From a virus (taxonomy: Duplodnaviria; Heunggongvirae; Uroviricota; Caudoviricetes), in IMG/VR virus record IMGVR_UViG_2778261162_000001, positions 1 to 30,495 of that record: 30,495 nucleotides of DNA, one strand, 5' to 3'. Positions 1,994 through 30,220 of this stretch are shown here, in pieces. Made by a program: the position numbers and the translations under genes. Below the pieces are notes generated by a model. The model saw nothing but the letters and a program-made list of their open reading frames with translations, was not told where the DNA came from and searched no databases. Every line of letters begins with the position of its first letter. Position 1 is the stretch's first letter.

Positions 1994-1996
1994 AGC

Positions 1997-3465: not shown

Positions 3466-3869
3466 AGCTGGCGACCGCCTGCACCGAACATCGTGATCAA
3501 CTGATAAAATTCAGCGCCATATCGGGTGTTATTCCAGAAACCTGCATCAGGATTCAGCGTCGCGCTGGTGTCATAGCTGACGCTTACCTTGTCAACGGAC
3601 TTTGAGGACTGAACACCATTGGTTGAACCGCCCGGACCACCAGCCAGCATCGCTCTGCTGTCTGCCGCCCAGAGCGTCATGTAGTGCGCAACGAACAATC
3701 CGGCAAAGTACGGAAACAACTTTTTGCCGGTGACGTTTTCACTCAGCAGTTCATCGGCCAGATTCAGACGAAACTGGATTTGCGCTTCGGGATATTTGGC
3801 AGGGTCAGCAAACTGCGGGAAGTCGCGGCGAAAATCACTTACCGCTGGCAGACTTTGATTCTTTGGCAT
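3462..3869 (-). CDS. Putative head completion or head-tail adaptor protein
   Basis: 135 aa ORF downstream of the capsid gene with translational coupling to the next gene. Confidence 0.4.
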
Positions 3870-4056
3870 TTTTTACCTCGTTACGCGCGTCTGTGGCTTT
3901 GCCAACGGATACTTCCGCGTGCGCACGAGTGAACCAGTGCGTGGCAACTTCTTCCTCCACAGCATGACGGCCTTTAACAAACTCGCGCCGTGAACCGTCG
4001 GGAAGCGTGAGCACAAACGGGGTATGTACGTGTATTACTGCATTATTTTTTGCCAT
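3835..4056 (-). CDS. Small phage structural-module protein, unknown function
   Basis: 73 aa ORF immediately downstream of the major capsid gene on the same strand. Confidence 0.3.
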
Positions 4057-4098
4057 CGGGTCATCCTTAATGGCCCCCGCCAGGGGGCCATGTGGCTG

Positions 4099-5040: not shown

Positions 5041-5051
5041 TCGTCTGTTCC

Positions 5052-5558
5052 TTAAATCTTCCAGGAAATTTCTGCATTGCCGTCAGCATCAGCGGCACCT
5101 GTGAATTCAGCGTTGGTCAGCACCACATTTTTGCCACTGACTGACGTGGACATGAATCCACCCAGCGGCACTTTGATGGATTCATCAGTGGAGACGACAA
5201 CGTATACCGGGTCGCCTTTTTTGATGGTGCTGGCATCAAAATCAGAACCGAGATTAACAGTCACGTAGCCACGCTTCATGGCGTCGCCCGGGAAGTTCTT
5301 GCCTGTTCCCACCTGGCGAACCATGTCCGGCTGCGACGTGGTCGGATAAGGGCGCACGTAGATCCCCTTCACCTTGTCTGCGGTATCACCATCTGCCAGC
5401 GGCACGAAAAAACCGTCATCATCGTATTTACCAGCCAGGCCATAGGCAGCGAAGGCGTTATCGGATTTAAGGACCACCGGTTCGACGGTTAAGTCCTGCG
5501 GGCGAGAGACAGCCCCGGCAATGCCAACAGGCATCCGGTACAGAAATACATTATTCAT
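5052..5558 (-). CDS. Head structural or decoration-like protein
   Basis: 168 aa ORF between the scaffold/protease-like gene and the capsid gene. Confidence 0.45.
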   Translation of the reverse strand: MNNVFLYRMPVGIAGAVSRPQDLTVEPVVLKSDNAFAAYGLAGKYDDDGFFVPLADGDTADKVKGIYVRPYPTTSQPDMVRQVGTGKNFPGDAMKRGYVTVNLGSDFDASTIKKGDPVYVVVSTDESIKVPLGGFMSTSVSGKNVVLTNAEFTGAADADGNAEISWKI

Positions 5559-5561
5559 TTT

Positions 5562-6782
5562 TTACCCTTTACGGTTTGCCCAGAATTCAGCGTTTTGTTT
5601 GTTCAGGGAAGCGATACTGGTCATGCCCATGTTTAGGCGCTGTGCATCGCCGGTGGTGGTGCGGGTGTTTCGCCCTTTGGCAATCTCAGACACGGCATTA
5701 AACGCCATGTCGACCGATTGTTTCGGCAATTTGCGGATATCCGCATCACCGACGATCTGGCGAACCAGCGTTTTGTCAGCAGAAGCCAGAACCTCACGTT
5801 TGAACGCGGTCGGTTTCATCTTACGGCTGAGATCGATACCCGGAACGATAACTTCGGCACGCCAGGCTGAGTCACCAGTAATCGTGGTTTCCTCTTCATC
5901 GTCCTCGCCGTCACAGGTCGGATTATCGTCAGGCTTATTGTCGTTATCGCCCGTGGCATTTCCTTCCAGCTTAGCCAGCAGGGCTTTCAGTAATGTTTTG
6001 AGGTCATCATCACTGTCGCCGGTTGGACCTCCACCCATCTCTGGTGCTTTGTCCGGTAGTGGTTGCTGCGGGGACAGGTTGATGTTGAGATTAACGCCCT
6101 GCGGCAAATCCCCCTCATCTCCTGTAACCGATGCGGGAGCCGACTCCACCAGTTCGTTCATGGTGTCGGCATCTCCTGTCGTGATGGCTGCACGCATGCG
6201 GTTCCACCAGTTTTTCTTTTGATTTGCCATTGTGTCTCTGTCTCCAATTGCACAACGATTTCCGGCTCTGCCTTTGGGGACAAGAGCCACATGGTTTCCG
6301 GTAATATCGACCTGCTCGGCTTTACCTGGCTCGGTCTGCTCGTACTCCGCGTCATAGCCGCACGACACTTCACGCAGGCCATCTTCGATAAGCTGAATGG
6401 CGTTTTCGTCTTTGACGATAAGGTCAGCCAGCATCAAATCAGACTGCTCACCCGTCCCGCGCCGGACATTCTGGAGGTGCCCGACAGCAAGCTCTTTCCA
6501 GTTCTCGGGATTTACCAGCCGCACATTCCCGTTTTCATCTTCAGGATGCAGGATCGTGATGCTCATCCCTTCGAATGAGGCAAGCGTGGCCGGATGGAAT
6601 ACCTGCTCAGGAGAACGCGTGACGACTATTTCACCGAACTTATCGGGTTTCAGTTTTGGCAGGTCATCAGCACCATAGAGCTGCTTACCTGTTCGTCCTA
6701 TCGGCACGTCTTTGCACAGCAACGAGCCGTCAGCCAGCTGATAGCGGGTTTCCCCCAGCCGGGTATTGAAAAAATATTTCAT
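5562..6782 (-). CDS. Prohead scaffold/protease-like protein with acidic low-complexity C-terminal half
   Basis: 406 aa ORF with an Asp/Glu/Gly-rich central region (GDSDDD...DGEDDEEETT), located between the minor head gene and the capsid gene. Confidence 0.5.
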   Translation of the reverse strand: MKYFFNTRLGETRYQLADGSLLCKDVPIGRTGKQLYGADDLPKLKPDKFGEIVVTRSPEQVFHPATLASFEGMSITILHPEDENGNVRLVNPENWKELAVGHLQNVRRGTGEQSDLMLADLIVKDENAIQLIEDGLREVSCGYDAEYEQTEPGKAEQVDITGNHVALVPKGRAGNRCAIGDRDTMANQKKNWWNRMRAAITTGDADTMNELVESAPASVTGDEGDLPQGVNLNINLSPQQPLPDKAPEMGGGPTGDSDDDLKTLLKALLAKLEGNATGDNDNKPDDNPTCDGEDDEEETTITGDSAWRAEVIVPGIDLSRKMKPTAFKREVLASADKTLVRQIVGDADIRKLPKQSVDMAFNAVSEIAKGRNTRTTTGDAQRLNMGMTSIASLNKQNAEFWANRKG

Positions 6783-6796
6783 GTGTTACCTGCGAT

Positions 6797-7570
6797 TCAG
6801 GCGGGGTAAGAATGGGAGGTGGGAAAAACGATTTCTTTATAACAGCGACAATTCGGGAACTCGCCAGCGTGACCTGTCATGCCGTCAAGCGTTGGAGGTT
6901 TGCCCCATTCGACAAATTTACCTTCCATTTCCCGATGAGAATGCCTGACGTCACCATCTTCGGCTGTACGCCAGATATAACCATTCGAACCAATTGCCAG
7001 CGCACGCGCCTGATCCAGCGCGCCGGTTGCACGTCCAAGTTCAGTACGGGCAATCAGGTCAGCTCTGGACTTTGCTATATCACCCGATGCTGCTATTTCT
7101 TTAGCAAAATGTTCCGCTCTCCCACCGGTCACAACAGCTTCAATCGCCCGATTCTGGATGTCGTACACCCTGTCAGCCGCCTCGAGGGGTAGCGATTTAA
7201 TGTACTTAACCTGTTCAGCAACGATGGATTTCATCACCTGCCCTAGAGGGGCACTGTTTACCAGATTGCGTAGCTCACGGCTGATGGTTTTGCTGTGTTT
7301 ACGCCACTGCTCATCATTCTTGCGCACAATGTCGGCGGTAAAGTTTTCCGCGACCTTTGTCGCCCAGGGGGTGATGATTTCACTGTAGCGTTCCAGCGCC
7401 TCAATAATTTCCGTGATACTGTCATTTGAACCATCGTAGCGACCATTTACGATGTCCCCGACCGCCCGCGCTATCCTGCGTAGACTGGTTCGATACCGGA
7501 TTTCCGCCTGACGGTTCCTGCGGTTCGTCATCAGGTTCGCCGATGCCGGGCGGCGCTTCGTCTTCGGCAT
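6797..7570 (-). CDS. Minor head morphogenesis protein (Mu F-like / SPP1 gp7-like)
   Basis: 257 aa ORF whose C-terminus carries VRHSH and FPNCRCY motifs typical of the Mu F-type head morphogenesis domain; sits directly after the portal gene. Confidence 0.7.
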   Translation of the reverse strand: MPKTKRRPASANLMTNRRNRQAEIRYRTSLRRIARAVGDIVNGRYDGSNDSITEIIEALERYSEIITPWATKVAENFTADIVRKNDEQWRKHSKTISRELRNLVNSAPLGQVMKSIVAEQVKYIKSLPLEAADRVYDIQNRAIEAVVTGGRAEHFAKEIAASGDIAKSRADLIARTELGRATGALDQARALAIGSNGYIWRTAEDGDVRHSHREMEGKFVEWGKPPTLDGMTGHAGEFPNCRCYKEIVFPTSHSYPA

Positions 7571-8888
7571 TCTCTATGTCCTCGTCGGTAATGGATGCCC
7601 CGATGCCGGTTACGTCAGAATTTTCGCGCAAATCGGTCATAGCGGCTTTCAGTGTCATCAGACCATCACCCAGCGCCGTACTGATTGCGTTGGTGGTGTT
7701 TAACGCCACCGTTGAGCGATCGACATCAGACATTTGCCAGAGCGGGTTAAACTCAAACGTGAAATCATCCGGCAGCGGCTTGCCAAGTTCCGAACGATGC
7801 ATGATGTCCAGTATCCGACGCACCGGAAGACGTAAACGCCTCTCCTGCAACGAACTGATGCGGTCGTAATAGTTGGCAAGATCTGCATCACCGGTAGAAA
7901 ATCCTTTCGGGGACTGTCCGAACAACCGCACCAGTGGAATACCAACAGCGCCACTAATCTGTTCTGCAAACTGCGATAGGATGTCATCCAGACCACTGAA
8001 GCTGTACTGATGCGTTTCAAACTTATCCCGCGAGTCCATGAGCGTCATGCCTTCATTGCTCTGGAACTGTCGAATCAGGTCGATATTCTTCAGCAACGCT
8101 TCATACGCAGGACCACCAAGTGCGATAAGCTCGCGTAGCTTCTCCACGCTGTAGGTACGCAAATGCGCTTTGTAGACCAGCTGCGCCGCGCCGACAGTGG
8201 CGCTGTCGAACGCAGTAAGCCGATCCCAGATACGCTCTACAACCGACATTCCCCATTCGTTCTCGGTCATCTTCTGCTGAAATGGCAGCGTGACGCCATC
8301 AAAGCGAATCAGGCGACTGTGATGAATGCGCCAGGCAGGAATTCCCGTTGCTGTGGTCACCACATCGTAAAACTCAGGTTTACCCAGGTCCGGCCCCATA
8401 TCTTTAATGCGGCGGGTCAGTACCGGGTCAATCATCCAGCGGTCGAGCGGGAGAATCCCCTTAAACTTGCCTTTACCGATGGTTTCGGGTCGCAGCGGGG
8501 TCATTGGTGCCTGCCCCTCAATCATGATGAAACCCACCGCGCCGCCGTAGAGGCGCGACCATTTCAGCACGTCATTCAGCGCATCCCAGATTTGCAACTC
8601 ATCCAGTTGTGATTCTAGAATGCCACGATCTTTTGCATCAATTTCCGAAGTAATGCGAATGCCTTTGCGGGTCATATCATCCGGGATAGCATCGACTGCT
8701 TCGCCGATGATCCAGGATGAACGATAGGACCATTCCACCAGCATGCGGTTACGACTGGTGAAATTAGCCCGATAGGTGGATGCTGAGTGCTGGTTAGGTG
8801 TCTGCATCCCTACGCGGGCAATAAAATTCTCATAACCATCAGCTGTGGCCTGCGCAGTTCGCCGCAGGGCTTGTTTGTTTCGTGCCAT
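7422..8888 (-). CDS. Portal protein
   Basis: 488 aa ORF immediately downstream of terminase large subunit, with start overlapping the terminase stop and an acidic C-terminal tail; canonical position. Confidence 0.7.
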   Translation of the reverse strand: MARNKQALRRTAQATADGYENFIARVGMQTPNQHSASTYRANFTSRNRMLVEWSYRSSWIIGEAVDAIPDDMTRKGIRITSEIDAKDRGILESQLDELQIWDALNDVLKWSRLYGGAVGFIMIEGQAPMTPLRPETIGKGKFKGILPLDRWMIDPVLTRRIKDMGPDLGKPEFYDVVTTATGIPAWRIHHSRLIRFDGVTLPFQQKMTENEWGMSVVERIWDRLTAFDSATVGAAQLVYKAHLRTYSVEKLRELIALGGPAYEALLKNIDLIRQFQSNEGMTLMDSRDKFETHQYSFSGLDDILSQFAEQISGAVGIPLVRLFGQSPKGFSTGDADLANYYDRISSLQERRLRLPVRRILDIMHRSELGKPLPDDFTFEFNPLWQMSDVDRSTVALNTTNAISTALGDGLMTLKAAMTDLRENSDVTGIGASITDEDIENAEDEAPPGIGEPDDEPQEPSGGNPVSNQSTQDSAGGRGHRKWSLRWFK

Positions 8889-10510
8889 CAGGCCTGTCTC
8901 CCTAGCAGCTCCCAGATGTTCAGGGCTGAATTCATTGGGGCATAGTTGATCATCACCGAGTCGGCAAGGTTTGGCGACCGGGTTCCATCAGGCTGTTTAT
9001 CAATAACGATTTTTCCCACACCATTAATGGAATAGGTCGGCTGCGAAAGCTCGATGATGAGTTTATCTTTGAGCGCCATGCTACTGCTGATTGAGATGAT
9101 TTCGTCCGGGTTGTAAGCCATACCTTCAACCACGGCGCGCCAGGTATTCTGAAAAAGTTTACGTAACCGCCACCAGCTCTGGGCTTTGGCGTTAGCGAAG
9201 AAGTCCTTGTTCAGACGTGCGGCTTGCCCGTTGTCCCCGCGAACAGCTTCATCATCCGGATCAAATACCGCGCCACTACCTCGAAACGGTGTGGCGAGTA
9301 TTGACGGTCGGCGCGCAGCGTTACGCAGTTCGTTGATAGCGCGCGCATCGCCGCGAACGCCAGCGCCCAGCCCGTCCTCGTCAAAGCGAAACTCTTCGAG
9401 GTTGTCCTGTTCGCAAAAACCGAAGACCTTCTCGACGGACTGATAAATGTCGCTGCCCACACCAGACCATTCCCGCACATTTTCCAGGAGGAAGCCATGA
9501 CGGGTGGAAAAGGCATTTTTGTCCCTGCCTTCGTCGGCGACATCCATCGCGCCAAGTCGTTTGCCTGTTGGCTGGATACCCAGTTTGATATGCGCATCAA
9601 CGGCAGCCTGTACCCATTCTGATGGAATCAGAACGCCTTCCGCTGATGCGCTGTAGTTCAGATCAAGTTCCTGTGCCACCACCACCGGATTATCGATTTT
9701 CTCGCATTCCCTGCGATACCACTCTTCATCCTTGCGAGGATCATCCCGCCAGTGGAATGTGAATACCGGTATCTTCCCGCCATGACGCTTCTGAGCGAAC
9801 GGGTTAGCCATGCCGTTAACTGAACTCAGGTCGATACGGCAACGCGTCGTTTGTGACAACGCCGCATCAATCAGCAGAGGACGCTGAAGGAATGCAGCCT
9901 CATCAACCAGATAAAGCGTGGTACGGTCACCACGACCAATATTATCGCCAGCCTCGCCTTTGATAACGGCACCAGTTTCAGGAAACTCAACACGCATATA
10001 TGGCGCGTGCTTCTTCTCGCTCCACGAACCGCGAAACTCTACAGGTAGCGTTTCCACGAACTTGCGCGCCTTCCAGAACAATGCTTTCGGGTCACCAGTG
10101 CTGTCGACGTATTCCTCTTTACGGGAGCCGAAACCGATAACCATTTCTTTGTTGAAGAGACAAAGCGAGCAGGCCAGTCCGATCGCGGTCCAACTGAGCC
10201 CCATTTCACGGGATTTTTCGGTAATACCATTCTCCCGATTGCTCCAGCGTTCCATAATCCAGTGGATCCACTCCTCCTGCTTAGGGAAGAGTAAAAACGG
10301 AATGGTCACCGGCAGGCCATAATCAATATTACGCGGGTCCGTTGTCATGCCCCAGTCGATGATGAACTGAGCCGGATTAGTTCGGTAAAACTGTTTTAGT
10401 GCAGGCAATATTTCAGGATTCTGGCGAATGCGCTGTAGGCGTTCCATCCGCCATTCAAAAACCATCTGGTAATCAGGATGTTTAAAATCGAAGGGGAATG
10501 GTAACGGCAT
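8888..10510 (-). CDS. Terminase large subunit
   Basis: 540 aa ORF directly after the small subunit; contains an ATPase-like GxxxxGKT-type region and a C-terminal nuclease-like half typical of TerL. Confidence 0.85.
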
Positions 10511-10512
10511 AC

Positions 10513-11064
10513 TTAGCCCATTATTTTTCTATACGCCTCTGCAGCCTGCTCCGGCGTTAAGTTGGTAATTTCTGTTCTGACTGGTCCTCCATCAGCGCCA
10601 GTCACTTCATTTTTGACGTTGTCTTTAAACGCCTGAACAGAAACATGACGCCCAAGCAATTCAAGATTTTTAACCTTATCAGGCCATTTGATTTTCTTCA
10701 GAAGTGCGGCGCTATCTGCGGATACCATCTCCACGACATCCATTCCTGATAGCGTTGTGCGCCATACCTTAGGCCAGTCTTTGATGGGTTTTAGCTCACC
10801 GTTTTGCAGGAGAATGTCAAGCACATCCATCTGGTCGATTTCAATAAGGCGATTAAGTACATATTCTGCATTTATTCCAACAGAGTCATTGCGTTGCGCT
10901 TTCAATTCGGAGATTCTGAATTGTATGTCAGGTTTTGACATGTTTTCGGACGCAGTACGGTTGGCTGTCTTTGCGCTGTACCCCGCCCGAATAGCCGCTT
11001 GCGTAGCGTTTAAATCGATGAGGTACTCGCGACAGAACATTTCTTGCTTGTCGGTGAGTGCCAT
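10513..11064 (-). CDS. Terminase small subunit
   Basis: 183 aa ORF beginning [30 protein letters not shown], a conserved terminase small subunit N-terminal HTH motif; precedes TerL. Confidence 0.8.
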
Positions 11065-11084
11065 TGTTTTTCCTTGGGTATTTT

Positions 11085-22311: not shown

Positions 22312-22447
22312 CCATTAATCACCAGATGCTTCGTGCTGCACAGAACAAAGCAGTAATAGCCAGATTTATTGGTGATTCAAAAATGTGGCTTGAAGCAAAT
22401 AAAGCGATGAAATCAGCTATCAACCTTCCGTGGTATCGCAGGAAATG
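22296..22447 (+). CDS. kil: Kil-like small protein
   Basis: 50 aa ORF MRNEIAINHQMLRAAQNKAVIARFIGDSKMWLEANKAMKSAINLPWYRRK; ARFIGDSKMWLEA resembles lambda Kil ATFIGDEKMFREA; canonical position after cIII. Confidence 0.5.
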
Positions 22448-22702
22448 AGTTTTACAGATAACTGGTCAGACGAAGAATTCATTCGTCAGATGAAAGATTT
22501 AATCGGTAACGAAGGAGATATTCATGTCACTTGCAACCACAGTGAAGGAGAGCAAGTTACAGAGACGCATGTACACGCAGAAAGCTCTCTGGTATCGCCA
22601 TAATGGTGACCGCGAAGGAATGCGGGTATGCCTTAATTTGTCCCGAGTCGAAGTATTAAATCAGCGTTATTTCCTTGGGCCGTGTCCATTCTGAGGTGAA
22701 TT

Positions 22703-23410
22703 ATGGATTTGAACAAATTCGATGAGCCATTCAGCCCTGAAGATATCGAATGGCGAATACAGCAAAGCGGTAAAACACGCGATGGCAAGGTGTGGGCTAT
22801 GGTGCTGGCTTATGTCACGAACCGGGCAATCATGAAACGCCTGGACGATGTTTGCGGCAAAGCAGGATGGCGCAATGAATACCGCGATATTCCCAACAAC
22901 GGCGGAGTTGAATGCGGCATATCAATCAAGATTGATTCCGAATGGGTAACCAAATGGGATGCTGCTGAAAACACGCAGGTAGAAGCCGTCAAAGGTGGTC
23001 GTTCAGGTGCAATGAAGCGTGCTGCCGTTCAGTGGGGAATCGGTCGGTATCTGTATAACCTTGAGGAAGGTTTCGCACAAACATCTCTCGATAAAAAGCA
23101 GGGGTGGCACAGGGCAAAACTGAAGGATGGAACAGGATTTTGCTGGCTCCCTCCATCGCTGCCGGGATGGGCAATCCCAGCATCAGATAACAAACCATCA
23201 CCAGAAAATACCAACCAGAAATCTCCATCGGTTGACTGCGAACAAATCCTGAAAGACTTCAGCGATTATGCGTCAACAGAAACTGACAAGAAAAAACTCA
23301 TCGAGCGTTATCAGCGTGACTGGCAATTAATGGCTGGCAACGAGGAGGCGCAGGCTAAATGCGTTCAGGTAATGAACATCAGAGTTAACGAACTAAAACA
23401 GGCGGCATAA
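22703..23410 (+). CDS. Single-strand annealing recombinase (Rad52-like family)
   Basis: 235 aa; occupies the bet position in the PL operon, directly upstream of ssb; the central motif MKRAAVQWGIGRYLY is remembered as Rad52-like. Confidence 0.65.
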   Translation: MDLNKFDEPFSPEDIEWRIQQSGKTRDGKVWAMVLAYVTNRAIMKRLDDVCGKAGWRNEYRDIPNNGGVECGISIKIDSEWVTKWDAAENTQVEAVKGGRSGAMKRAAVQWGIGRYLYNLEEGFAQTSLDKKQGWHRAKLKDGTGFCWLPPSLPGWAIPASDNKPSPENTNQKSPSVDCEQILKDFSDYASTETDKKKLIERYQRDWQLMAGNEEAQAKCVQVMNIRVNELKQAA

Positions 23411-23917
23411 ATGGCAAGCAGAGGCGCAAATAAGGTGATTATCCTTGGTCGGGTAGGACAAGACCCGGAAGTTCGATACTCACCATCAGGAACAGCGTTC
23501 GCTAACCTGACAATAGCCACGTCAGAACAATGGCGAGATAAAAATACTGGCGAGCAAAAGGAATTGACTGAATGGCATCGTGTTGCTGTATCCGGGAAAC
23601 TGGCTGAGGTCGTGGGGCAGTATGTGAAAAAAGGTGATCAGATTTATTTCGAGGGAATGCTGAGAACCAGAAAGTGGAAAGACCAGTCAGGGCAAGACCG
23701 TTACACAACCGAGGTTCATGTCGGAATTAATGGCGTGATGCAAATGCTTGGCGGCATTGGCGACAGCAAACAACAAGCAGCCAGCAGGCAATCACAGAAG
23801 CCACAGCAGCAATCATCACCAGCACAACACAACGAACCTCCGATGGATTTTGACGACGATATACCCTTTGCACCAGTAACTCTCCCCTTCCCTCGTCACG
23901 CTATTCACGCAATTTAA
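23411..23917 (+). CDS. ssb: Single-stranded DNA-binding protein
   Basis: 168 aa; OB-fold N-terminus [23 protein letters not shown]..., Gln/Pro-rich linker, acidic C-terminal tail DFDDDIPF. Confidence 0.9.
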
Positions 23918-23930
23918 TCAGGAGAAAATC

Positions 23931-24224
23931 ATGCCAGCGCCTCTGTATGGTGCGGATGACGCGCGCCGCTGTTCCGGCAATTCCGTATCGGAGGTGCTGG
24001 ATAAATTCAGGAAAAACTACAACCGGATAATGTCGCTACCGCAGGAAACGAAAGAGGAAAAGGAATTTCGCCATTGTATATGGCTTGCAGAGAAAGAAGA
24101 ACGCGAGCGAATTTACCAGACATCAATCCGACCATTCCGCAAAGCCACATATACCCACTTCCCTGAAATTGACCCGCGCCTGCGTAATTACCGCTCACGC
24201 TATGGCGCTATCAGTAATGACTGA
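23931..24224 (+). CDS. Early-left protein of unknown function
   Basis: 97 aa ORF, co-oriented, 13 nt after ssb. Confidence 0.5.
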
Positions 24225-24234
24225 GGAATTTACC

Positions 24235-24399
24235 ATGAGAGGACTTGCATACAATCCCGGCATTCTTCCGGCAGAAATGATTATTCGCCAACGCGTAAAG
24301 CCAATGCCATCGAGAGAGGAATTGCTTAAGAGAAATTCTTTTCCATCAGTAAATCAAAACAAATATCTGAATGCGATGTGGCGGAGTGGGAAGAAATGA
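24235..24399 (+). CDS. Small early protein of unknown function
   Basis: 54 aa ORF from ATG with Shine-Dalgarno GAGGAA 7 nt upstream; under the 60 aa track threshold. Confidence 0.35.
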
Positions 24400-24674
24400 A
24401 ACAAATGTCACTAATTGAGATGGATGGATTTCTGAAAGGTAAATGCATCCCACGAGATTTAAAGGTTAACGAAACAAACGCTGAATATCTTGTCCGTAAG
24501 TTCGGTGAACTTGAATCAAAACTCAACGAGCAGCGTGAGTATTACGAAGGTGTTATCTCGGATGGGAGTAAGCGCATTGCTGAACTGGAGAAAAGCGAAG
24601 AGCAACTCATTATTGAGCAAGCAACTCACTGGATGCCACTACCAGAACCGCCACAGGAGTCGAAGAGTGAATAA
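24378..24674 (+). CDS. Early-left protein of unknown function (coiled-coil-like)
   Basis: 98 aa ORF; the actual start may be the Met at 24396 or 24405. Confidence 0.45.
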
Positions 24675-24888
24675 AGCAGAGTTATTTCAGAAAATATCGG
24701 CTCTCGCGACTGAATGCCACGCTATAGCATCTGAGCTTGATGTTGGCGATGAACGAACCGAGATGTTCGAAATATACAGTGTGCTGCGCAATCTCTGTCG
24801 GCGTGGCTACGCCACTCAAGTAGGGCGAATGACTAACCCACTACTCTCATCCTGTGATGAGGATGACTCGGATGAGGATGACGAATGA
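24666..24888 (+). CDS. Small acidic early protein of unknown function
   Basis: 74 aa from GTG at 24666 preceded by AGGAG; acidic C-terminus DEDDSDEDDE; translationally coupled to the next gene. Confidence 0.4.
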
Positions 24889-25550
24889 TGCATAAATCAG
24901 TAGCCGGTGAGTTTCAGAAGGAAGTCGATAATACTACCGTTCTATTGGACGATATTTTAAGCATTCTCGCGCTGCTTGAGGCTGGCGATTGGTCAGAACA
25001 TTGCACTAAAACAGAGCTAGGCGGTCGGCTTGAAAGAGAGATTACACGACTTATTGGTGATGCGCAGGAAGCTACAGTCACTAGTTATGAGTTAATCGCT
25101 GAAGCCTGGCGTTTGATGGATGGACAAGATCCTAAAACCAGCGATTGGCATAGCAAGGCTTCGAAGTATTTAAATTCCAATAGGGTAGAAAAAGTTGATG
25201 ATGTGAAACCGAAGCCAGTAGACCACGGTTTCCGCGATAACTGCGAATGCTCTAGTTGCCAGACCACGGCCCGTATTTGTTCCGAATTGACAGATAAGTC
25301 CAGCCTAATCTACGAAGTTAATGTAGGCGGTAATACATGGGTCGAATGCACAAGAGCTGCATACGTAAGAGCAAAAGACAAGGGTGAATTAACCAGAGTT
25401 GTTACCAATCACCCAAATAATGAGCTTAAAGATCACCAGATTCGAGAACTGGTGAACGAGTTGAGGGATATTGCGGTTCAGTACCACGGAACGCAGCAAT
25501 TGCGGGAGAAGATTGCCAGAGCAGTGAACAACTCAGTCCGTAAAAAATAA
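24885..25550 (+). CDS. Early-left protein of unknown function (221 aa, Cys cluster CECSSC)
   Basis: Last gene of the PL-direction operon before a strong hairpin at 25569-25591. Confidence 0.55.
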   Translation: MMHKSVAGEFQKEVDNTTVLLDDILSILALLEAGDWSEHCTKTELGGRLEREITRLIGDAQEATVTSYELIAEAWRLMDGQDPKTSDWHSKASKYLNSNRVEKVDDVKPKPVDHGFRDNCECSSCQTTARICSELTDKSSLIYEVNVGGNTWVECTRAAYVRAKDKGELTRVVTNHPNNELKDHQIRELVNELRDIAVQYHGTQQLREKIARAVNNSVRKK

Positions 25551-25605
25551 GCAATAGTACGATAAAGAGGCCCCATGCTCTTGATGGGGCCTGTAGCAAC
25601 TAGCG

Positions 25606-25689
25606 TTATGGACGCTGGTTTACGTACTCAATGATCGCTTTGATAATCGCGAACATCGGCGGCACGATTTTGAACAGTAAGTTAACCAT
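25606..25689 (-). CDS. Candidate small peptide (27 aa, partly hydrophobic), speculative
   Basis: ATG preceded by GAGG at 6 nt spacing; peptide MVNLLFKIVPPMFAIIKAIIEYVNQRP; followed on the minus strand by the 8 bp GC-rich hairpin at 25569-25591. Confidence 0.3.
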   Translation of the reverse strand: MVNLLFKIVPPMFAIIKAIIEYVNQRP

Positions 25690-25993
25690 AACAGGCCTCA
25701 CTTAGTTTTATCGCGCCTAGCTGCAAATACCTTTGGGCTTGCCTTTGCAGTTGCAATATCTGTAGTCGCCAGATACTTACGGCACGATTTCGAGTTAAGG
25801 TAAGGTTTTAGAGTCACCAAAAACCTGGACTTAAATCTTCTTTGAGAACAACGATGTTTAGTAAATGGTCATTATTACCTGGTATGACCACTCAACGTTT
25901 CTTGATGAATCCAGTACATTCGGTTAATCTTAATTCAGTCGCCAGATACTTATGGCTCAGGAACAGAGCCGCAAACTCTGTTTCCTTTTAAAA

Positions 25994-26020
25994 AGCCCAG
26001 CCTAGTCAACTGGGCTTTTT
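25994..26020. terminator. Bidirectional rho-independent terminator-like hairpin
   Basis: Stem AGCCCAG/CTGGGCT with 9 nt loop, flanked by an A-run upstream and a T-run downstream. Confidence 0.55.
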
Positions 26021-26315
26021 AATGTCTATTTTTAACCCAATGAACCTTCAATACCGCAACATCAATGTCTTGCGAATTAAGATAGTGTGTATAGGTTATA
26101 CATGCAAGTGCATAACTCTGTGGATAACTCAGGAAGGAAAAAGTAGCTTCCGCGCAATTTAGGCCAGACAAGGCTTTCGCAAAAGTCAACGGAGAGAAAA
26201 AATTTGTTAAAAATAACGTTTGTTGGAATAGTATATATTTATGCCTTTCAATAGTTAGCATCTTATTAACATCTTTTTTAAGAGATAGAGTTCAAAAATA
26301 TATAGCTTCAACATA

Positions 26316-26335
26316 TACTGTATATATACACAGCA
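26316..26335 (+). promoter_or_regulatory. LexA box (SOS operator) upstream of the UmuD'-like gene
   Basis: TACTGTATATATACACAGCA fits CTG-N10-CAG with an AT-rich centre; 17 bp upstream of the start codon. Confidence 0.65.
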
Positions 26336-26351
26336 TTAAGAGGCGAGTATT

Positions 26352-26807
26352 ATGGGCTTCCCTTCTCCTGCGGCGGATTATGCTGAGAGCCGTATTTCTC
26401 TTGATCAGCAGATAATTAGACATCCTTCAGCGACCTACTTCTTGAGGGCAGCTGGTAGCCATCATCGTGAGGGAATATTGCAGGGTGCATTGCTGGTGGT
26501 CGATTCATCACTCACTCCTGTTGATGGATCTCTTCTTGTATGTGCTCTGGATGGGGAATATCGCGTAAAAAGATACCGGAAGTATCCGCGCCGCCATGAT
26601 TGTCTTTCTCCTAATGCAGGAAAAGCAGAATGGCTAAATCATCAGCAGAGCGCAAAGCCGATCAGAGAGCCAAGCAAGCATCATCCGGTATGCGTAAGCT
26701 GGAGCTTGTACTTGATGCTCAGGAAATTGAAATGCTGGATCGTAACTGAGCCACGCGCCGCTTCAGGCATTCGCCTTGCGAGTTTGGTGAGTACATCGCG
26801 TTACTGA
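26352..26807 (+). pseudogene. UmuD'-like (LexA/S24 fold) gene, probably degenerate: similarity to UmuD 25-110 only, catalytic Ser apparently replaced, divergent C-terminus
   Basis: MGFPSPAADYAESRISLDQQIIRHPSATYFLRAAGSHH...LLVVDSS...ALDGEYRVKR aligns to E. coli UmuD from the Cys24-Gly25 cleavage site onward; GDSM is replaced by GSHH; no similarity after about residue 90. Confidence 0.5.
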
Positions 26808-26968
26808 GCCGCCAGGATGATGCACATGTGCGCTGGCGTATAAAATCGATCAGCAGAAAACGTTGCGGTAAGTGCGGCGAGAGAGTTCCTGTTAATTCAT
26901 GCCCGTGTAATGGTGACTCACAATGCTGGGTGACCAAAGGCTGGCACGAAACAAAATTAATGATATAA
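26630..26968 (+). pseudogene. ORF interrupted by in-frame TGA at 26747-26749; downstream part Cys-rich (zinc-finger-like)
   Basis: Shine-Dalgarno AGGAAAAG then MAKSSAERKADQRAKQASSGMRKLELVLDAQEIEMLDRN, TGA, then 72 in-frame codons ending ...RKRCGKCGERVPVNSCPCNGDSQCWVTKGWHETKLMI. Confidence 0.35.
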
Positions 26969-26996
26969 ATCTCTGTGACATGTCACGGAGGCGGCA

Positions 26997-27425
26997 ATGA
27001 AATTAGACCAGCAATATCTAAAAGATCTACTTATCGCATTCGAAAAAACTCGTGGCCCTGACACGATGCTTAGTGAACTAGAGGATAATGGCTTTAATAG
27101 ATATGACCAAGATTTTATTTTCCATATGCGATTATTATATGACTACGAATTAATAGTCAGGGTTGATGGAAAACCTGGGTTCGGTCATATAATGTCCAAA
27201 GCGTTAGGGGAAGGTGTTGGATATAGTTGGATCGAAGTACCACTGAGGTTGACAGCAAGAGGGCATGATTTTATTGCTGACTTACGTCAAAAGGATGTCT
27301 GGCAAGCTATAAAAACAAACTTTAAGGATGAGGGAATTAGTACACTTATGAGTGTTTCAAAATCACTAGCAAAAGGCTTTGCAAGGAAAAAGATAAAAGA
27401 TATTACAGGAATAGATATTGAATAA
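26997..27425 (+). CDS. Protein of unknown function (142 aa)
   Basis: Strong Shine-Dalgarno GGAGG; perfect 12 bp palindrome GTGACATGTCAC at 26975-26986 just upstream; own terminator-like hairpin downstream. Confidence 0.5.
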   Translation: MKLDQQYLKDLLIAFEKTRGPDTMLSELEDNGFNRYDQDFIFHMRLLYDYELIVRVDGKPGFGHIMSKALGEGVGYSWIEVPLRLTARGHDFIADLRQKDVWQAIKTNFKDEGISTLMSVSKSLAKGFARKKIKDITGIDIE

Positions 27426-27470
27426 TTCTTAGCATCAAGCAACTACTGCCTTTGGTGGAAATTATATCTG

Positions 27471-27495
27471 AACTCGCTACGGCGAGTTTTGTTTT
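27471..27495 (+). terminator. Terminator-like hairpin
   Basis: Stem ACTCGC/GCGAGT, loop TACG, followed by TTTTGTTTT. Confidence 0.5.
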
Positions 27496-27508
27496 ATGGA
27501 GATGATAA

Positions 27509-27676
27509 ATGCACTTCCGAGTCACAGGTGAATGGAATGGAGAGCCATTCAACAGGGTTATCGAAGCAGAGAACATCAACGACTGCTATAACCACTGGAT
27601 GATATGGGCGCAGATAGCGCATGCAGACGTAACCAATATTCGAATTGAAGAACTGAAAGAACACCATGCCGCCTGA
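27509..27676 (+). CDS. Small protein of unknown function (55 aa)
   Basis: Shine-Dalgarno GGAG 7 nt upstream; MHFRVTGEWNGEPFNRVIEAENINDCYNHWMIWAQIAHADVTNIRIEELKEHHAA; stop codon sits inside a terminator hairpin. Confidence 0.4.
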   Translation: MHFRVTGEWNGEPFNRVIEAENINDCYNHWMIWAQIAHADVTNIRIEELKEHHAA

Positions 27677-27689
27677 TGGCGGTTTTTTA
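27668..27689 (+). terminator. Rho-independent terminator
   Basis: Stem GCCGCC/GGCGGT, loop TGAT, followed by TTTTTT. Confidence 0.6.
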
Positions 27690-27702
27690 TTGGAGACAAG
27701 AA

Positions 27703-28047
27703 ATGTCAGATTTGGCTATGAAGGTTTTGAAATGGCAATCGACTGGCGATGTCGGCATCAGTAGCGCAACTCTTGCCTCAATCGCATGTGGACTGAAAAA
27801 GAATATCTATGGTCATAGCTTCGGTGCTCCACATGACGCAGCCGATTTCCGGCGATGCGTTGCACTTGTTGAGCAGATTCCAGAAATCAGAGATTCATTC
27901 GACAAGGTTGCAAAGCGCGTTCCGGCATTCAAAGGCATCCTCAACGAATGGGATTCTCTCGTTGCTCTGTTGAAGTCTGAAATGAAGATACACGGAAACA
28001 AAGCACCAGAGACTTACAGAAGAATCAGCGAGCTACGCAAGGACTAA
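27703..28047 (+). CDS. Protein of unknown function (114 aa)
   Basis: ATG with Shine-Dalgarno GGAGA upstream (the Met at 27676 lies inside the terminator and is less likely). Confidence 0.5.
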   Translation: MSDLAMKVLKWQSTGDVGISSATLASIACGLKKNIYGHSFGAPHDAADFRRCVALVEQIPEIRDSFDKVAKRVPAFKGILNEWDSLVALLKSEMKIHGNKAPETYRRISELRKD

Positions 28048-28129
28048 CCACAGTCTCACACTCGATGAGGCCTGTTCATTTCTCAAGATATCCAGACCTA
28101 CCATTGCTGCATCAATGCGGCTTTTTATT

Positions 28130-28150
28130 GCCTGATTTGCAGGTTCGATT
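28130..28150. repeat. Fragment resembling the T-arm of tRNA-Arg (argW); possible att scar
   Basis: ATTTGCAGGTTCGATTCC matches the recalled argW segment AATTGCAGGTTCGATTCC (17 of 18) and then diverges. Confidence 0.4.
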
Positions 28151-28171
28151 CCCTATTCGGAGATAGCACTC

Positions 28172-28372
28172 ATGCAACACGAACTACAGCCTGATTCACT
28201 GGTTGATTTGAAATTCATCATGGCTGATACTGGCTTCGGTAAGACCTTCATCTATGACCGGATTAAGTCCGGCGACCTGCCTAAAGCCAAAGTTATCCAC
28301 GGACGAGCAAGATGGTTATATCGTGACCATTGTGAATTCAAAAATAAGCTCTTAAGCCGCGCCAATGGGTAA
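28172..28372 (+). CDS. AlpA-family transcriptional regulator / excisionase-like protein
   Basis: 66 aa; KFIMADTGFGKTFIYDRIKSGDLPKAKVIHGRARWLYRDHCEF is typical of the AlpA HTH family found next to P4-type integrases. Confidence 0.75.
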   Translation: MQHELQPDSLVDLKFIMADTGFGKTFIYDRIKSGDLPKAKVIHGRARWLYRDHCEFKNKLLSRANG

Positions 28373-28440
28373 AATAGCGGGTAAAATATTTTTCACATCT
28401 AAAAAATACCATTCCAATCAATCCCCTGCCGCGCCAAGTA

Positions 28441-28460
28441 GATGCCTGCAGGGGACACCA
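28441..28460. repeat. Fragment matching the 3' end of tRNA-Arg (argW) including CCA; likely attR-type scar
   Basis: GATGCCTGCAGGGGACACCA versus the recalled argW 3' end GATTCCTGCAGGGGACACCA (19 of 20); upstream sequence does not form the rest of a tRNA. Confidence 0.5.
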
Positions 28461-28901
28461 GATACCCTTCAAACGAAATCTACCTTCACCCCGTAAAAGA
28501 TGGGTTTGGCAGCACACTTGCCTTATATCTACTCATTTTTACTGCAACAGGTTGAAATCTCAGCACTGTCAGAAAGCGCTGATGACTAAACAGCCCTGGG
28601 CCGGGCGATGTAACCATCACACAGAATCCTGATAGCGAAATATGGCGTGACTCGATACTTCACTCCGCAATGCATTCCTTGATGAATTCGCAGGACCGTG
28701 ATACACGGGACAGGTCACTGAATGACGACAATGTCCTGGAAATCAGCGAACCGCGCATCTGAAGTACATTTGAGCGACTGTACCAGAACATGAATGAGGC
28801 GTTTGGATTAGGCGATTATTAGCAGGGCTAAGCATTTTACTATTATTATTTTCCGGTTGAGGGATATAGAGCTATCGACAACAACCGGAAAAAGTTTACG
28901 T

Positions 28902-30149
28902 CTATATTGCTGAAGGTACAGGCGTTTCCATAACTATTTGCTCGCGTTTTTTACTCAAGAAGAAAATGCCAAATAGCAACATCAGGCAGACAATACCCGA
29001 AATTGCGAAGAAAACTGTCTGGTAGCCTGCGTGGTCAAAGAGTATCCCAGTCGGCGTTGAAAGCAGCACAATCCCAAGCGAACTGGCAATTTGAAAACCA
29101 ATCAGAAAGATCGTCGACGACAGGCGCTTATCAAAGTTTGCCACGCTGTATTTGAAGACGGATATGACACAAAGTGGAACCTCAATGGCATGTAACAACT
29201 TCACTAATGAAATAATCCAGGGGTTAACGAACAGCGCGCAGGAAAGGATACGCAACGCCATAATCACAACTCCGATAAGTAATGCATTTTTTGGCCCTAC
29301 CCGATTCACAAAGAAAGGAATAATCGCCATGCACAGCGCTTCGAGTACCACCTGGAATGAGTTGAGATAACCATACAGGCGCGTTCCTACATCGTGTGAT
29401 TCGAATAAACCTGCATAAAAGACAGGAAAAAGTTGTTGATCAAAAATGTTATAGAAAGACCACGTCCCCACAATAAATATGACGAAAACCCAGAAGTTTC
29501 GATCCTTGAAAACTGCGATAAAATCCTCTTTTTTTACCCCTCCCGCATCTGCCGCTACGCACTGGTGATCCTTATCTTTAAAACGCATGTTGATCATCAT
29601 AAATACAGCGCCAAATAGCGAGACCAACCAGAAGTTGATATGGGGACTGATACTAAAAAATATGCCGGCAAAGAACGCGCCAATAGCATAGCCAAAAGAT
29701 CCCCAGGCGCGCGCTGTTCCATATTCGAAATGAAAATTTCGCGCCATTTTATCGGTGAAGCTATCAAGCAAACCGCATCCCGCCAGATACCCCAAGCCAA
29801 AAAATAGCGCCCCCAGAATTAGACCTACAGAAAAATTGCTTTGCAGTAACGGTTCATAAACGTAAATCATAAACGGTCCGGTCAAGACCAGGATGAAACT
29901 CATACACCAGATGAGCGGTTTCTTCAGACCGAGTTTATCCTGAACGATGCCGTAGAACATCATAAATAGAATGCTGGTAAACTGGTTGACCGAATAAAGT
30001 GTACCTAATTCCGTCCCTGTCAACCCTAGATGTCCTTTCAGCCAAATAGCGTATAACGACCACCACAGCGACCAGGAAATAAAAAAGAGAAATGAGTAAC
30101 TGGATGCAAAACGATAGTACGCATTTCTGAATGGAATATTCAGTGCCAT
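28902..30149 (-). CDS. cscB: Sucrose:proton symporter CscB (LacY-family MFS permease)
   Basis: 415 aa translation begins MALNIPFRNAYYRFASSYSFLFFISWSLWWSLYAIWLKGH and is recognised as E. coli CscB over its length; 12 TM helices. Confidence 0.95.
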   Translation of the reverse strand: MALNIPFRNAYYRFASSYSFLFFISWSLWWSLYAIWLKGHLGLTGTELGTLYSVNQFTSILFMMFYGIVQDKLGLKKPLIWCMSFILVLTGPFMIYVYEPLLQSNFSVGLILGALFFGLGYLAGCGLLDSFTDKMARNFHFEYGTARAWGSFGYAIGAFFAGIFFSISPHINFWLVSLFGAVFMMINMRFKDKDHQCVAADAGGVKKEDFIAVFKDRNFWVFVIFIVGTWSFYNIFDQQLFPVFYAGLFESHDVGTRLYGYLNSFQVVLEALCMAIIPFFVNRVGPKNALLIGVVIMALRILSCALFVNPWIISLVKLLHAIEVPLCVISVFKYSVANFDKRLSSTIFLIGFQIASSLGIVLLSTPTGILFDHAGYQTVFFAISGIVCLMLLFGIFFLSKKREQIVMETPVPSAI

Positions 30150-30220
30150 AATTACCTGCCTGTCGTTAAAAAATTCACGTCCTATTTAGAGATAAGAGCG
30201 ACTTCGCCGTTTACTTCTCA

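What the first reader, a model, noticed from the sequence alone, without database searches (positions are those of the whole stretch)
28130..28460. AlpA-family gene flanked by two different fragments of a tRNA-Arg (argW-like) 3' half; no integrase anywhere in the window
18 nt resembling the argW T-arm occur at 28130-28150 and 20 nt matching the argW 3' end with CCA at 28441-28460, with an AlpA-type excisionase-like gene between them and chromosomal csc genes right after. This looks like nested att scars from sequential integrations at argW, with the intact tRNA and integrase expected beyond the tail end of the prophage. That would mean the lambdoid prophage has a non-lambda int location or has lost int/xis and is locked in place. 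The argW sequence was recalled from memory, which is the main uncertainty.
Basis: partly seen in the sequence, partly recalled or inferred. Interest (0 to 1): 0.5.

Follow-up and report, generated by a model that had tools for sequence, protein, structure and literature searches.

The report
TorI excisionase beside argW attR site
This is the ordinary, already well-studied right-hand end of a prophage sitting in the argW tRNA gene of E. coli: the phage's excisionase gene torI followed by the attR junction. The integrase normally lies at the other end of the prophage, which this short assembly contig does not reach.

Summary
Both argW fragments are real. Window 28137-28152 equals argW nt 46-61 and 28445-28460 equals argW nt 60-75, ending in CCA. 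The gene between them (28172-28372) is torI, 100% identical to K-12 TorI (PDB 1Z4H), the recombination directionality factor of the KplE1/CPS-53, HK620, Sf6 and Kapi1 module. In that module attP lies between xis and int, so a prophage has argW-intS at one end and torI-attR at the other. The 3' fragment is the attR core: 1415 of 5426 complete E. coli genomes carry the matching empty site. The missing integrase says nothing, because the window is a whole 30,495-bp draft contig that breaks inside tail genes. The 5' fragment is not a chromosomal scar. It is carried by phage HK620 and K-12 KplE1, and no genome uses it as a junction (0 of 5426). A related T-arm-like box sits at a fixed distance upstream of the RDF gene in many enterobacterial genera. 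Its function is unknown. My guess is a TorI- or IntS-binding site in the leader. The finding is already known and of low interest; the conserved box is a small open question.

The parts
28038..28102 (+). Remnant of the 5' end of a P22/ST64T-type xis gene (encodes HSLTLDEACSFLKISRPT; no start codon; truncated after about 20 codons). It marks the junction where a P22-like xis-int-attP module was replaced.
   Evidence: A local alignment of 65 columns to phage ST64T xis has 4 mismatches and one 1-base gap, about 92% identity. The translation matches Xis residues 4-21 with one substitution. The same remnant precedes torI in K-12 KplE1.
28106..28129 (+). Intrinsic-terminator-like hairpin (GCTGCA-TCAA-TGCGGC) plus a T-run, immediately upstream of the torI leader.
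   Evidence: Terminator scan and RNA fold. A terminator occupies this position in HK620, CUS-3 and most relatives.
28137..28152 (+). 'Fragment 1': a T-arm-like box, TTGCAGGTTCGATTCC, equal to argW nt 46-61. It is part of the phage-borne torI leader and is not an att junction.
   Evidence: exact and unique. (present in K-12 KplE1, HK620 and CUS-3, and exact in 46 of 49 IMG/VR loci). (conserved at 18-19 nt from the ATG across genera). (never a junction).
28159..28162 (+). Shine-Dalgarno sequence GGAG of torI.
   Evidence: Read from the sequence. The block CGGAGAT is conserved in the alignment.
28172..28372 (+). torI: recombination directionality factor (excisionase) and TorR inhibitor, 66 aa, intact.
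   Evidence: 100% identical to K-12 TorI and HK620 HkaC. Full-length match to PDB 1Z4H, E = 6.6e-43. RefSeq annotation of near-identical DNA.
28367..28386 (+). Two direct GGGTAAAA repeats (28367-28374 and 28379-28386) overlapping the torI stop codon. They are putative IntS arm-type sites of the P arm.
   Evidence: Inferred. The same TAAA-containing motif recurs in attL, where Panis 2010 mapped IntS P' sites (PMC2951348; attL sequence). The repeats are conserved in the attR flanks of almost all divergent loci that retain one. They lie inside the 135-bp attR used for in vitro excision (PMC3509656).
28349..28460 (+). attR recombination region: P arm plus core, corresponding to the experimentally used K-12 attR.
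   Evidence: 106 of 112 positions identical to the K-12 attR, measured from the attR-IHF2 primer site to the end of the core (primers in PMC3509656).
28445..28460 (+). 'Fragment 2': the attR core. CTGCAGGGGACACCA lies at 28446-28460, and C28445 extends identity to argW nt 60-75. It is equivalent to the K-12 pseudogene 'pawZ'.
   Evidence: K-12 annotation. Published core CTGCAGGGGACACCAT (PMC2951348). Empty-site test: a contiguous argW...CCA|GATACCC... is present in 1415 of 5426 genomes.
28461..30495 (.). Chromosomal flank of the argW-dsd hypervariable region: a small DUF4942 gene fragment (about 28640-28822 by homology), cscB (28902-30149, minus strand) and the start of cscK.
   Evidence: Co-linear with strain AST215 at 99.2% identity, with annotation. 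In AST215 the csc cluster is followed by truncated dsdX and dsdA. No further argW fragment lies downstream.

Best explanation

In the circular phage the order is early-left (PL) operon, terminator, torI, P arm, 15-16-nt core, P' arm carrying the intS promoter, then intS. Integration splits this between torI and intS. The prophage therefore reads argW(attL)-intS ... torI-attR.

Excision (established knowledge from the K-12 system):
- IntS is made constitutively at a low, self-repressed level from a promoter inside attL.
- The switch is TorI expression, which comes from read-through of upstream early-left transcription.
- TorI binds GTTCG-type sites in attL and directs IntS and IHF to recombine attL with attR.

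The 3' argW fragment is the attR core. The 5' fragment is not a second att scar of this chromosome. It is a conserved, phage-borne box in the torI leader. It is very probably of tRNA (argW T-arm) ancestry.

My inference for its role, at roughly 0.3-0.35 probability, is a protein-binding regulatory site for TorI and/or IntS. The remaining probability is split between an inert relic and some other leader function.

Shown here: identities, boundaries, conservation. Taken from the literature: the biochemistry of IntS and TorI. Inferred: what lies on the missing contig(s), and the function of the box. The confidence given (0.9) is for the identification of the locus as the torI-attR end of an IntS/TorI-type prophage at argW, not for the function of the box.
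For: Identity of the parts:
- TorI is 100% identical to K-12 TorI, HK620 HkaC and PDB 1Z4H.
- The core and P arm are 106 of 112 identical to the functional K-12 attR.

Arrangement in relatives:
- Window 19084-30445 is co-linear at 99.2% with strain AST215, whose prophage is yfdC-argW-intS-...-torI-attR-cscB.
- HK620 has torI-attP core-int contiguous.

Boundary:
- The empty site argW|GATACCC... is present in 1415 of 5426 genomes, with the boundary exactly after the CCA.

The contig:
- The window is a complete draft contig.

The box is phage-borne and conserved:
- Presence in K-12 KplE1, HK620 and CUS-3.
- Conservation across loci and genera.
- No sigma70-like promoter lies between the terminator and torI. 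This fits read-through expression.
Against: - intS and the intact argW of this particular strain were not seen, because they are on other contigs.
- The virion module of this prophage differs from AST215's. It matches a prophage that elsewhere sits at torS-torT with a lambda-type xis-int. The left end is therefore inferred from the module, not observed.
- For the box, binding by TorI or IntS rests only on motif resemblance. GGTTCG is the core of published site I4, and the box equals the argW sequence just left of the crossover.
- The box lies outside the 135-bp attR that suffices in vitro.
- Several lineages lack the box.
- The number of segregating sites in the box is not significantly reduced.
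Confidence: 0.9

Rival explanations
1. One reading: the two fragments are nested att scars left in this chromosome by two successive integrations at argW. The AlpA-like gene would be the remnant of the second element, and the prophage would be locked in place.
For: Both fragments really are argW-derived and are directly oriented. The argW-dsd region is a known hot spot with varied inserts (PMC8787464 citing Moritz and Welch 2006). A DUF4942 fragment next to csc hints at older elements. The two copies overlap in tRNA coordinates, both covering GAT(T/G)CC. In other genera the box and the sequence left of the core both contain TTCGAT. So an ancient duplication of an att-like sequence in the ancestry of the module is possible.
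Against: Fragment 1 plus torI is carried in the genome record of phage HK620 and in K-12 KplE1 with the same spacing. It lies inside the insert delimited by the empty-site test. A true middle att site of a tandem array would run through to the tRNA 3' end; fragment 1 stops at nt 61. torI and attR are intact and near-identical to the functional K-12 versions. No genome has a junction at fragment 1.
Confidence: 0.05
2. Fragment 1 (TTGCAGGTTCGATTCC) is the true att core, as annotated in the CUS-3 GenBank record. torI would then lie outside the prophage.
For: In CP000711 the 16-nt repeat in argW is annotated 'attL core', and the copy upstream of torI is annotated 'attR core'. The two are perfect 16-nt direct repeats.
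Against: 0 of 5426 complete E. coli genomes contain the junction this model predicts, whereas 1415 contain the empty site predicted by the CTGCAGGGGACACCA core. In vitro excision works with a 135-bp attR that lacks fragment 1 (PMC3509656). HK620 carries fragment 1, torI, the core and int contiguously.
Confidence: 0.02
3. Fragment 1 is an inert evolutionary relic of a tRNA-derived sequence, for example an older att copy at the edge of the swapped module. It would have no present function and persist only because the module is young and spreads horizontally.
For: It sits about 8 nt from the left edge of the shared module: homology to HK620 starts at window 28117. That edge is next to a xis remnant that marks a module swap. 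Several lineages lack it or have cleanly deleted it (L016, L221, L007). Some close relatives carry 1-2 substitutions in it. It is not needed for in vitro excision.
Against: It is retained across genera whose RDF proteins differ by up to about 30%, with a fixed 18-19 nt distance to the ATG, while its flanks and the 5-7 nt spacer have diverged. Tandem copies exist (L208, L211-L213). The minor-allele load within E. coli is about 10-fold below that of synonymous sites.
Confidence: 0.3
4. Fragment 1 acts at the RNA or promoter level. Options are an anti-Shine-Dalgarno hairpin (UUCC pairing with GGAG), a T-loop-like processing signal, or part of an activator-dependent promoter as annotated for HK620 ('phage integration' promoter with a cII site TTGC-N5-TTGC).
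For: HK620 annotation. RNAalifold places box residues opposite the SD region. Some lineages have a complete T-arm hairpin (ACAGGTTCGATTCCCTGT in Edwardsiella and Pantoea stewartii).
Against: The consensus hairpin is weak (-2.9 kcal/mol) with no compensatory changes. The window's leader folds no better than shuffled sequence (z = -0.65). No sigma70-like hexamers are present. The TTGC repeat has N5 rather than N6 spacing and is not conserved in other genera. A cII promoter upstream of the RDF gene would also express the excisionase during lysogenisation, which would be counter-productive.
Confidence: 0.15

Closest known systems
KplE1 (CPS-53) prophage recombination module of E. coli K-12: argW-attL-intS ... 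torI-attR (pawZ)
   Same: TorI protein is identical. The leader is the same, including the 16-nt T-arm box and the xis remnant. The attR arm is 106 of 112 identical and the core is the same. The integration site, argW, is the same.
   Different: KplE1 is a 10-kb defective remnant next to dsdC. Here the module is attached to an apparently complete lambdoid prophage, with immunity, replication, lysis, head and part of the tail genes visible, and it abuts the csc sucrose island.
Phages HK620, Sf6, CUS-3 and Kapi1 (P22-like podoviruses integrating at argW)
   Same: The same torI(hkaC)-attP-int arrangement and the same core. HK620 matches window 28117-28460 at 96.8%. The published statement that int and xis end up at opposite prophage ends applies (PMC8787464).
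   Different: Their virions are P22-like. The window's structural genes match a different virion module that includes a tail-tube protein (Phage_Tube_PhiTE), Pfam E217_gp27/gp31 families, a Mu F-like head protein and baseplate genes. In HK620 and CUS-3 the terminator of the 55-aa ORF directly abuts the torI leader. In the window a 123-aa ORF plus the xis remnant are interposed.
Lambda Int/Xis module (PL ... xis-int-attP)
   Same: A heterobivalent tyrosine integrase, a small winged-helix RDF and IHF. The RDF is the last or near-last gene of the leftward early operon. Strand exchange occurs within a short common core.
   Different: In lambda attP lies after int, so xis and int stay together in the prophage, are co-transcribed from PL, and Xis binds the P arm (attR). 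Here attP lies between the two genes, TorI binds attL, and intS has its own autoregulated promoter inside attL (PMC2951348). A sister prophage with the same body and a lambda-type xis-int at torS-torT shows that the two modules are interchangeable.
AlpA of CP4-57 and P4-like islands (Pfam Phage_AlpA)
   Same: A small (about 66-70 aa) winged-helix or MerR-like DNA-binding protein that controls excision of a tRNA-integrated element. Some NCBI records name TorI homologues 'AlpA family'.
   Different: TorI does not reach any Pfam threshold. It shows only HTH_17 at 16.9 bits against a cut-off of 27, with no Phage_AlpA hit. Its solved structure is described as Xis-like. AlpA acts mainly as a transcriptional activator of its integrase gene, whereas TorI represses intS and acts architecturally.

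Membership tests
KplE1/HK620-type IntS/TorI recombination module at argW | RDF gene torI (66-aa winged-helix protein) is the last prophage gene and reads towards attR. | tested here: met
   100% identical to K-12 TorI and HK620 HkaC. Matches PDB 1Z4H at E = 6.6e-43. The position is 73 nt upstream of the core.
KplE1/HK620-type IntS/TorI recombination module at argW | The common core CTGCAGGGGACACCA(T), identical to the 3' end of argW, forms the prophage/chromosome boundary. | tested here: met
   The core lies at 28446-28460. The reconstructed empty site is contiguous in 1415 of 5426 E. coli genomes, with the best hits at 100% coverage and 99.6% identity.
KplE1/HK620-type IntS/TorI recombination module at argW | The P arm between torI and the core carries the IntS arm-type and IHF sites of the functional attR. 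| tested here: met
   106 of 112 positions identical to the K-12 attR used in vitro (PMC3509656). The GGGTAAAA repeats are intact. The binding itself was not tested.
KplE1/HK620-type IntS/TorI recombination module at argW | [quoted passage not shown] | not testable with these tools
   The window is the whole 30,495-bp contig and ends in tail genes. There is no IntS homologue in it. This feature is present in strain AST215, which shares the right 11.4 kb at 99.2%.
KplE1/HK620-type IntS/TorI recombination module at argW | TorI-dependent excision yields attP and attB. | not testable with these tools
   Needs PCR or sequencing of the junctions after induction or torI over-expression.
AlpA family (Pfam PF05930 Phage_AlpA) | A match to the family profile above the curated threshold. 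| tested here: not met
   The only Pfam hit is HTH_17 at 16.9 bits against a cut-off of 27. NCBIfam gives no hit. The resemblance is functional and at fold level only.
Tandem or nested att scars from sequential integrations | The inner partial tRNA copy is chromosomal or junctional: absent from the free element, and it runs from the crossover to the tRNA 3' end. | tested here: not met
   The inner copy is present in the HK620 phage genome record and in K-12 KplE1. It covers only argW nt 46-61. It lies inside the insert. It is never a junction.
Lambda-type int-xis-attP module | int and xis are adjacent, on the same side of attP. | tested here: not met
   torI is followed directly by the attR core and the chromosome, with no int between or nearby.

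The most novel reading that the evidence does not exclude
The T-arm-like box (consensus CAGGTTCGATT[C/T]CC) lies at a fixed 18-19 nt upstream of torI-family RDF genes in Escherichia, Citrobacter, Enterobacter, Serratia, Pantoea, Edwardsiella and relatives. On this reading it is an undescribed operator derived from the target tRNA. TorI, whose published sites have the core GTTCG (I4 = TGGTTCGC), and/or the core-binding domain of IntS would bind it. That would give feedback control of excisionase synthesis, the step said to decide excision in this module and whose promoter and regulation are still called 'non-characterized'.
Probability: 0.3. Interest if true: 0.4.

Novelty: already known. Interest (0 to 1): 0.15.

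Why it matters
For annotation, this locus should be labelled torI plus attR of an IntS/TorI-type prophage at argW. The split int/xis layout is normal for this module. It is no evidence of a decayed or immobile prophage. The case also shows two practical traps. First, a contig end can look like a missing integrase. Second, the 16-nt argW T-arm repeat upstream of torI can be mistaken for an att core, as appears to have happened in the CUS-3 GenBank record. That error places the prophage boundary about 310 bp too far in and excludes the excisionase gene. The only open biology is the conserved T-arm-like box in the torI leader. It could bear on how excisionase expression, the controlling step of excision in this family, is regulated.

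Tried and rejected
- Chance origin of the fragments: rejected.
- A tRNA or other Rfam RNA in 27600-28900: only two noise hits with E near 8. ARAGORN finds only the phage tRNA-Thr and tRNA-Asn at 13571-13726.
- An integrase hidden in the window: tblastn with IntS finds nothing. Pfam on the unannotated ORFs of 24.9-28.2 kb shows only DUF2513 and a Peptidase_S24 fragment.
- A further argW fragment beyond the csc genes, which would indicate a csc island bounded by att scars: none in strain AST215.
- Fragment 1 as a recombination boundary: 0 of 5426 genomes.
- A conserved RNA structure around the box: weak, with no covariation.
- A sigma70 promoter for torI: none.
- A second TorI-like pentamer 12 nt downstream of the box: exact in a few lineages (GTTCG in L021, GTCCG in L020 and L215) but degenerate in most, so I did not rely on it (by eye).
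- Similarity of the spacer and SD region to the argW acceptor strand: not distinguishable from an ordinary Shine-Dalgarno sequence, so dropped.
- Reading Panis 2007 (JBC), Menouni 2013 (PNAS) and King 2007 (J Bacteriol): not held in the library. Statements about Rho and read-through control of torI rest on my memory of the Menouni 2013 abstract.
- More distant RDF families at other tRNAs were not sampled.

Full report
**Observation**

I took argW from an annotated tRNA-Arg in E. coli AST215 (L001 5762-5836). Two exact stretches of it occur in the window, both on the + strand:
- argW nt 46-61, TTGCAGGTTCGATTCC, at 28137-28152.
- argW nt 60-75, CCTGCAGGGGACACCA, at 28445-28460.

Each is unique in the window even with two mismatches allowed. 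Chance expectation is 0.02 and 0.01 matches. The two copies therefore overlap in tRNA coordinates, both covering GAT(T/G)CC. They are not the two halves of one split copy.

The ORF between them (28172-28372) is intact. cscB and cscK follow.

**What the gene is**

The 66-aa product is 100% identical to K-12 TorI and to HK620 HkaC. It matches PDB 1Z4H, 'Tor inhibition protein', over its full length. RefSeq annotates near-identical DNA as torI in thousands of E. coli genomes.

TorI is the recombination directionality factor of the KplE1/CPS-53 prophage (PMC3509656; PMC2951348). It does not reach Pfam's AlpA or HTH_17 thresholds. 'AlpA-family' is therefore a functional analogy rather than membership.

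**What the 3' fragment is**

K-12 annotates the same 15 nt after torI as the pseudogene pawZ at the end of CPS-53. Panis et al. give the duplicated core as CTGCAGGGGACACCAT. The 112 nt from the published attR primer site to the end of the core differ at only 6 positions between the window and K-12.

I built the predicted empty site from argW through its CCA, joined to window 28461-28760. It is present as one contiguous alignment in many strains, and 1415 of 5426 complete genomes reach at least 80% coverage. The best hits have 100% coverage and 99.6% identity. So 28460 is the exact right boundary of an insertion into argW. Everything to its left, including torI and the 5' fragment, belongs to the inserted element.

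**Where the integrase is**

The module is known for an unusual layout in which attP lies between the RDF gene and int. A prophage therefore carries int next to the tRNA at one end and the RDF at the other (PMC2951348; PMC8787464 for Kapi1). HK620 shows torI(hkaC)-attP core-int contiguously.

Strain AST215 is co-linear with window 19084-30445 at 99.2%. Its order is yfdC-argW-intS-[prophage]-torI-attR-DUF4942 fragment-cscB-cscK-cscA.

The window is the complete 30,495-bp contig NTPL01000044.1 of a draft assembly, and it stops inside tail genes. A sister prophage has about 10 kb of tail genes beyond the corresponding point. The absence of an integrase is therefore an assembly limit. It is not evidence of loss.

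The structural and late region of the window (78-11066) matches at 97.7% a prophage that sits between torS and torT with an adjacent lambda-type xis-int. This phage body is thus found with either recombination module.

**What the 5' fragment is**

It is not a scar in this chromosome.
- The identical 16-mer, with identical spacing to torI, is in K-12 KplE1, in the HK620 genome record and in CUS-3.
- It is exact in 46 of the 49 IMG/VR loci whose torI start my search located, out of 80 fetched.
- The junction expected if it served as an att core, argW T-arm fused to the torI leader, is found in 0 of 5426 genomes.

The CUS-3 GenBank record nevertheless labels this repeat 'attR core', labels its argW twin 'attL core', and ends the prophage there, excluding torI. 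I consider that a mis-annotation. HK620's annotators instead placed a hypothetical cII-activated promoter over it.

**Context of the 5' fragment**

Homology to HK620 begins at window 28117. Immediately upstream lie:
- an intrinsic-terminator-like hairpin with a T-run at 28106-28129;
- before it, at 28038-28102, a remnant of the 5' end of a P22/ST64T-type xis gene, encoding HSLTLDEACSFLKISRPT.

The same remnant is present in K-12. This marks an old swap of a P22-like xis-int-attP module for the torI-attP-intS module.

**Comparative result on the box**

I collected TorI homologues and their loci from one genome per species and from IMG/VR.
- 48 distinct RDF proteins had readable upstream sequence. 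Of these, 26 have GGTTCGATTCC (one mismatch or fewer) upstream.
- 21 of them have it at a fixed 18-19 nt from the ATG.
- Across Escherichia, Citrobacter, Enterobacter, Serratia, Pantoea and Edwardsiella the block CAGGTTCGATT(C/T)CC is kept. The upstream flank and the 5-7-nt spacer before the Shine-Dalgarno sequence vary.
- Some lineages have two tandem copies (L211-L213, L208). Some have a complete T-arm hairpin (Edwardsiella, Pantoea stewartii). Some have a clean deletion (L016, L221). Where the RDF is fused to an upstream gene (Klebsiella phage Chronis) the box is absent.
- Within E. coli-type modules (65 haplotypes) the minor-allele load in the box is 0.005 per site per haplotype. The comparison values are 0.049 at torI third codon positions and 0.023 in flanking non-coding sites. 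The number of segregating sites is not significantly lower.
- To the left of the core, the attR of most lineages reads aaTTCGATGTa. The tRNA-like sequence of attP therefore extends imperfectly into the T-loop, and the module holds two partly overlapping T-loop-like copies.

**Mechanism**

*Established for K-12.* IntS is expressed from a promoter inside attL and is repressed by IntS and TorI. TorI binds five sites in attL with cores GTTCG, GATCG or GTCCG. Excision in vitro needs IntS, TorI, IHF, attL and a 135-bp attR. The torI promoter is 'non-characterized' (PMC2951348; PMC3509656). From my memory of Menouni et al. 2013 (not readable here), torI is expressed by read-through transcription that Rho normally suppresses.

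*In the window.* torI is the last gene of the leftward early operon. By transfer from AST215, the cI-like repressor is at 19445-20077 and the N homologue near 20783-21106, followed by erf, ssb and abc. No sigma70-like promoter lies between the terminator and torI. I infer that induction leads to N-antiterminated PL transcription through the terminator, then TorI synthesis, then attL x attR recombination.

*The box.* It contains GGTTCG, the core of published TorI site I4 (TGGTTCGC). It also equals the argW sequence immediately left of the crossover, where a core-type IntS site would be expected. My preferred but unproven reading is a protein-binding regulatory site of tRNA ancestry. An RNA hairpin with the Shine-Dalgarno sequence gets no support.

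**Verdict**

The finding describes a known structure correctly and draws a partly wrong inference.
- Right: this is an att site at argW, the int location is non-lambda, and the integrase lies beyond the tail end.
- Wrong or unsupported: nested scars from sequential integrations, and a locked-in prophage.

Novelty: already known. The only residue of interest is the conserved T-arm-like box in the torI leader. I found no description of it in the searchable literature.

Noticed in passing
window 1-30495: The window is the complete contig NTPL01000044.1 (30,495 bp) of draft assembly GCA_002463795.1. Both window ends are assembly breaks: the left one inside phage tail genes, the right one inside cscK.
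   Followed up: yes
window 28038-28102: Remnant of the first ~20 codons of a P22/ST64T-type xis gene (HSLTLDEACSFLKISRPT), without a start codon, directly upstream of the torI module. It is also present in K-12 KplE1. It is a footprint of an exchange of recombination modules between lambdoid phages.
   Followed up: yes
L211-L213 (about 30-60 nt upstream of the RDF start), L208, L020-L022, L016, L221: In relatives from other genera the T-arm-like box occurs as tandem copies (AGGTTCGATTCCcgtcAGGTTCGATTCC), as a complete T-arm hairpin (ACAGGTTCGATTCCCTGT), or is cleanly deleted. Its distance to the RDF start codon is otherwise fixed at 18-19 nt.
   Followed up: partly
L004 1521-1536 and L005 1-16 (GenBank CP000711, phage CUS-3): The public CUS-3 record annotates the argW T-arm 16-mer and its copy upstream of torI as the attL and attR cores, and ends the prophage before torI. 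Population data contradict this: 0 of 5426 genomes have the junction that annotation predicts, against 1415 of 5426 with the empty site predicted by the CTGCAGGGGACACCA core.
   Followed up: yes
window 27668-27693 versus 28106-28130: Two terminator-plus-'TTTTTATTG' copies bracket a 123-aa ORF of unknown function (27676-28047) and the xis remnant. In HK620 and CUS-3 the first terminator abuts the torI leader directly. The ~440 bp therefore look like a mosaic insertion between short direct repeats.
   Followed up: partly
window 26352-26807: An ORF whose first ~82 residues match Peptidase_S24. AST215 annotates the co-linear stretch as a C-terminally truncated 'HumD family translesion DNA polymerase' pseudogene, followed by another pseudogene with an internal stop.
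   Followed up: partly
window 13571-13726 (minus strand): Phage-borne tRNA-Thr(TGT) and tRNA-Asn(GTT) lie between the Q antiterminator region and the lysis genes. The related prophage at torS-torT carries the same pair, while AST215's has only tRNA-Asn.
   Followed up: no
window 78-24383 versus L006 (NZ_CP182374.1, torS-torT locus): Much the same phage body (replication, nin region, lysis, terminase, head and tail genes; 72% of window 1-25000 aligned at 96.8%) occurs in other E. coli between torS and torT, with an adjacent lambda-type excisionase-integrase pair. This directly illustrates integration-module swapping. By coincidence, that site borders the tor genes that TorI inhibits.
   Followed up: partly
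window 28445: The base just left of the core is C here, matching argW and giving 16 nt of identity. It is T in K-12 and HK620, and in all but one of the 33 IMG/VR E. coli-type loci whose sequence reaches the core. It could be a phage variant or the trace of mismatch correction after strand exchange.
   Followed up: no
window 28461-28900; L259: Between attR and cscB lies a short DUF4942 gene fragment. In AST215 the csc cluster (cscB, K, A, R) replaces dsdC and most of dsdX. No additional argW fragment bounds the csc genes.
   Followed up: partly
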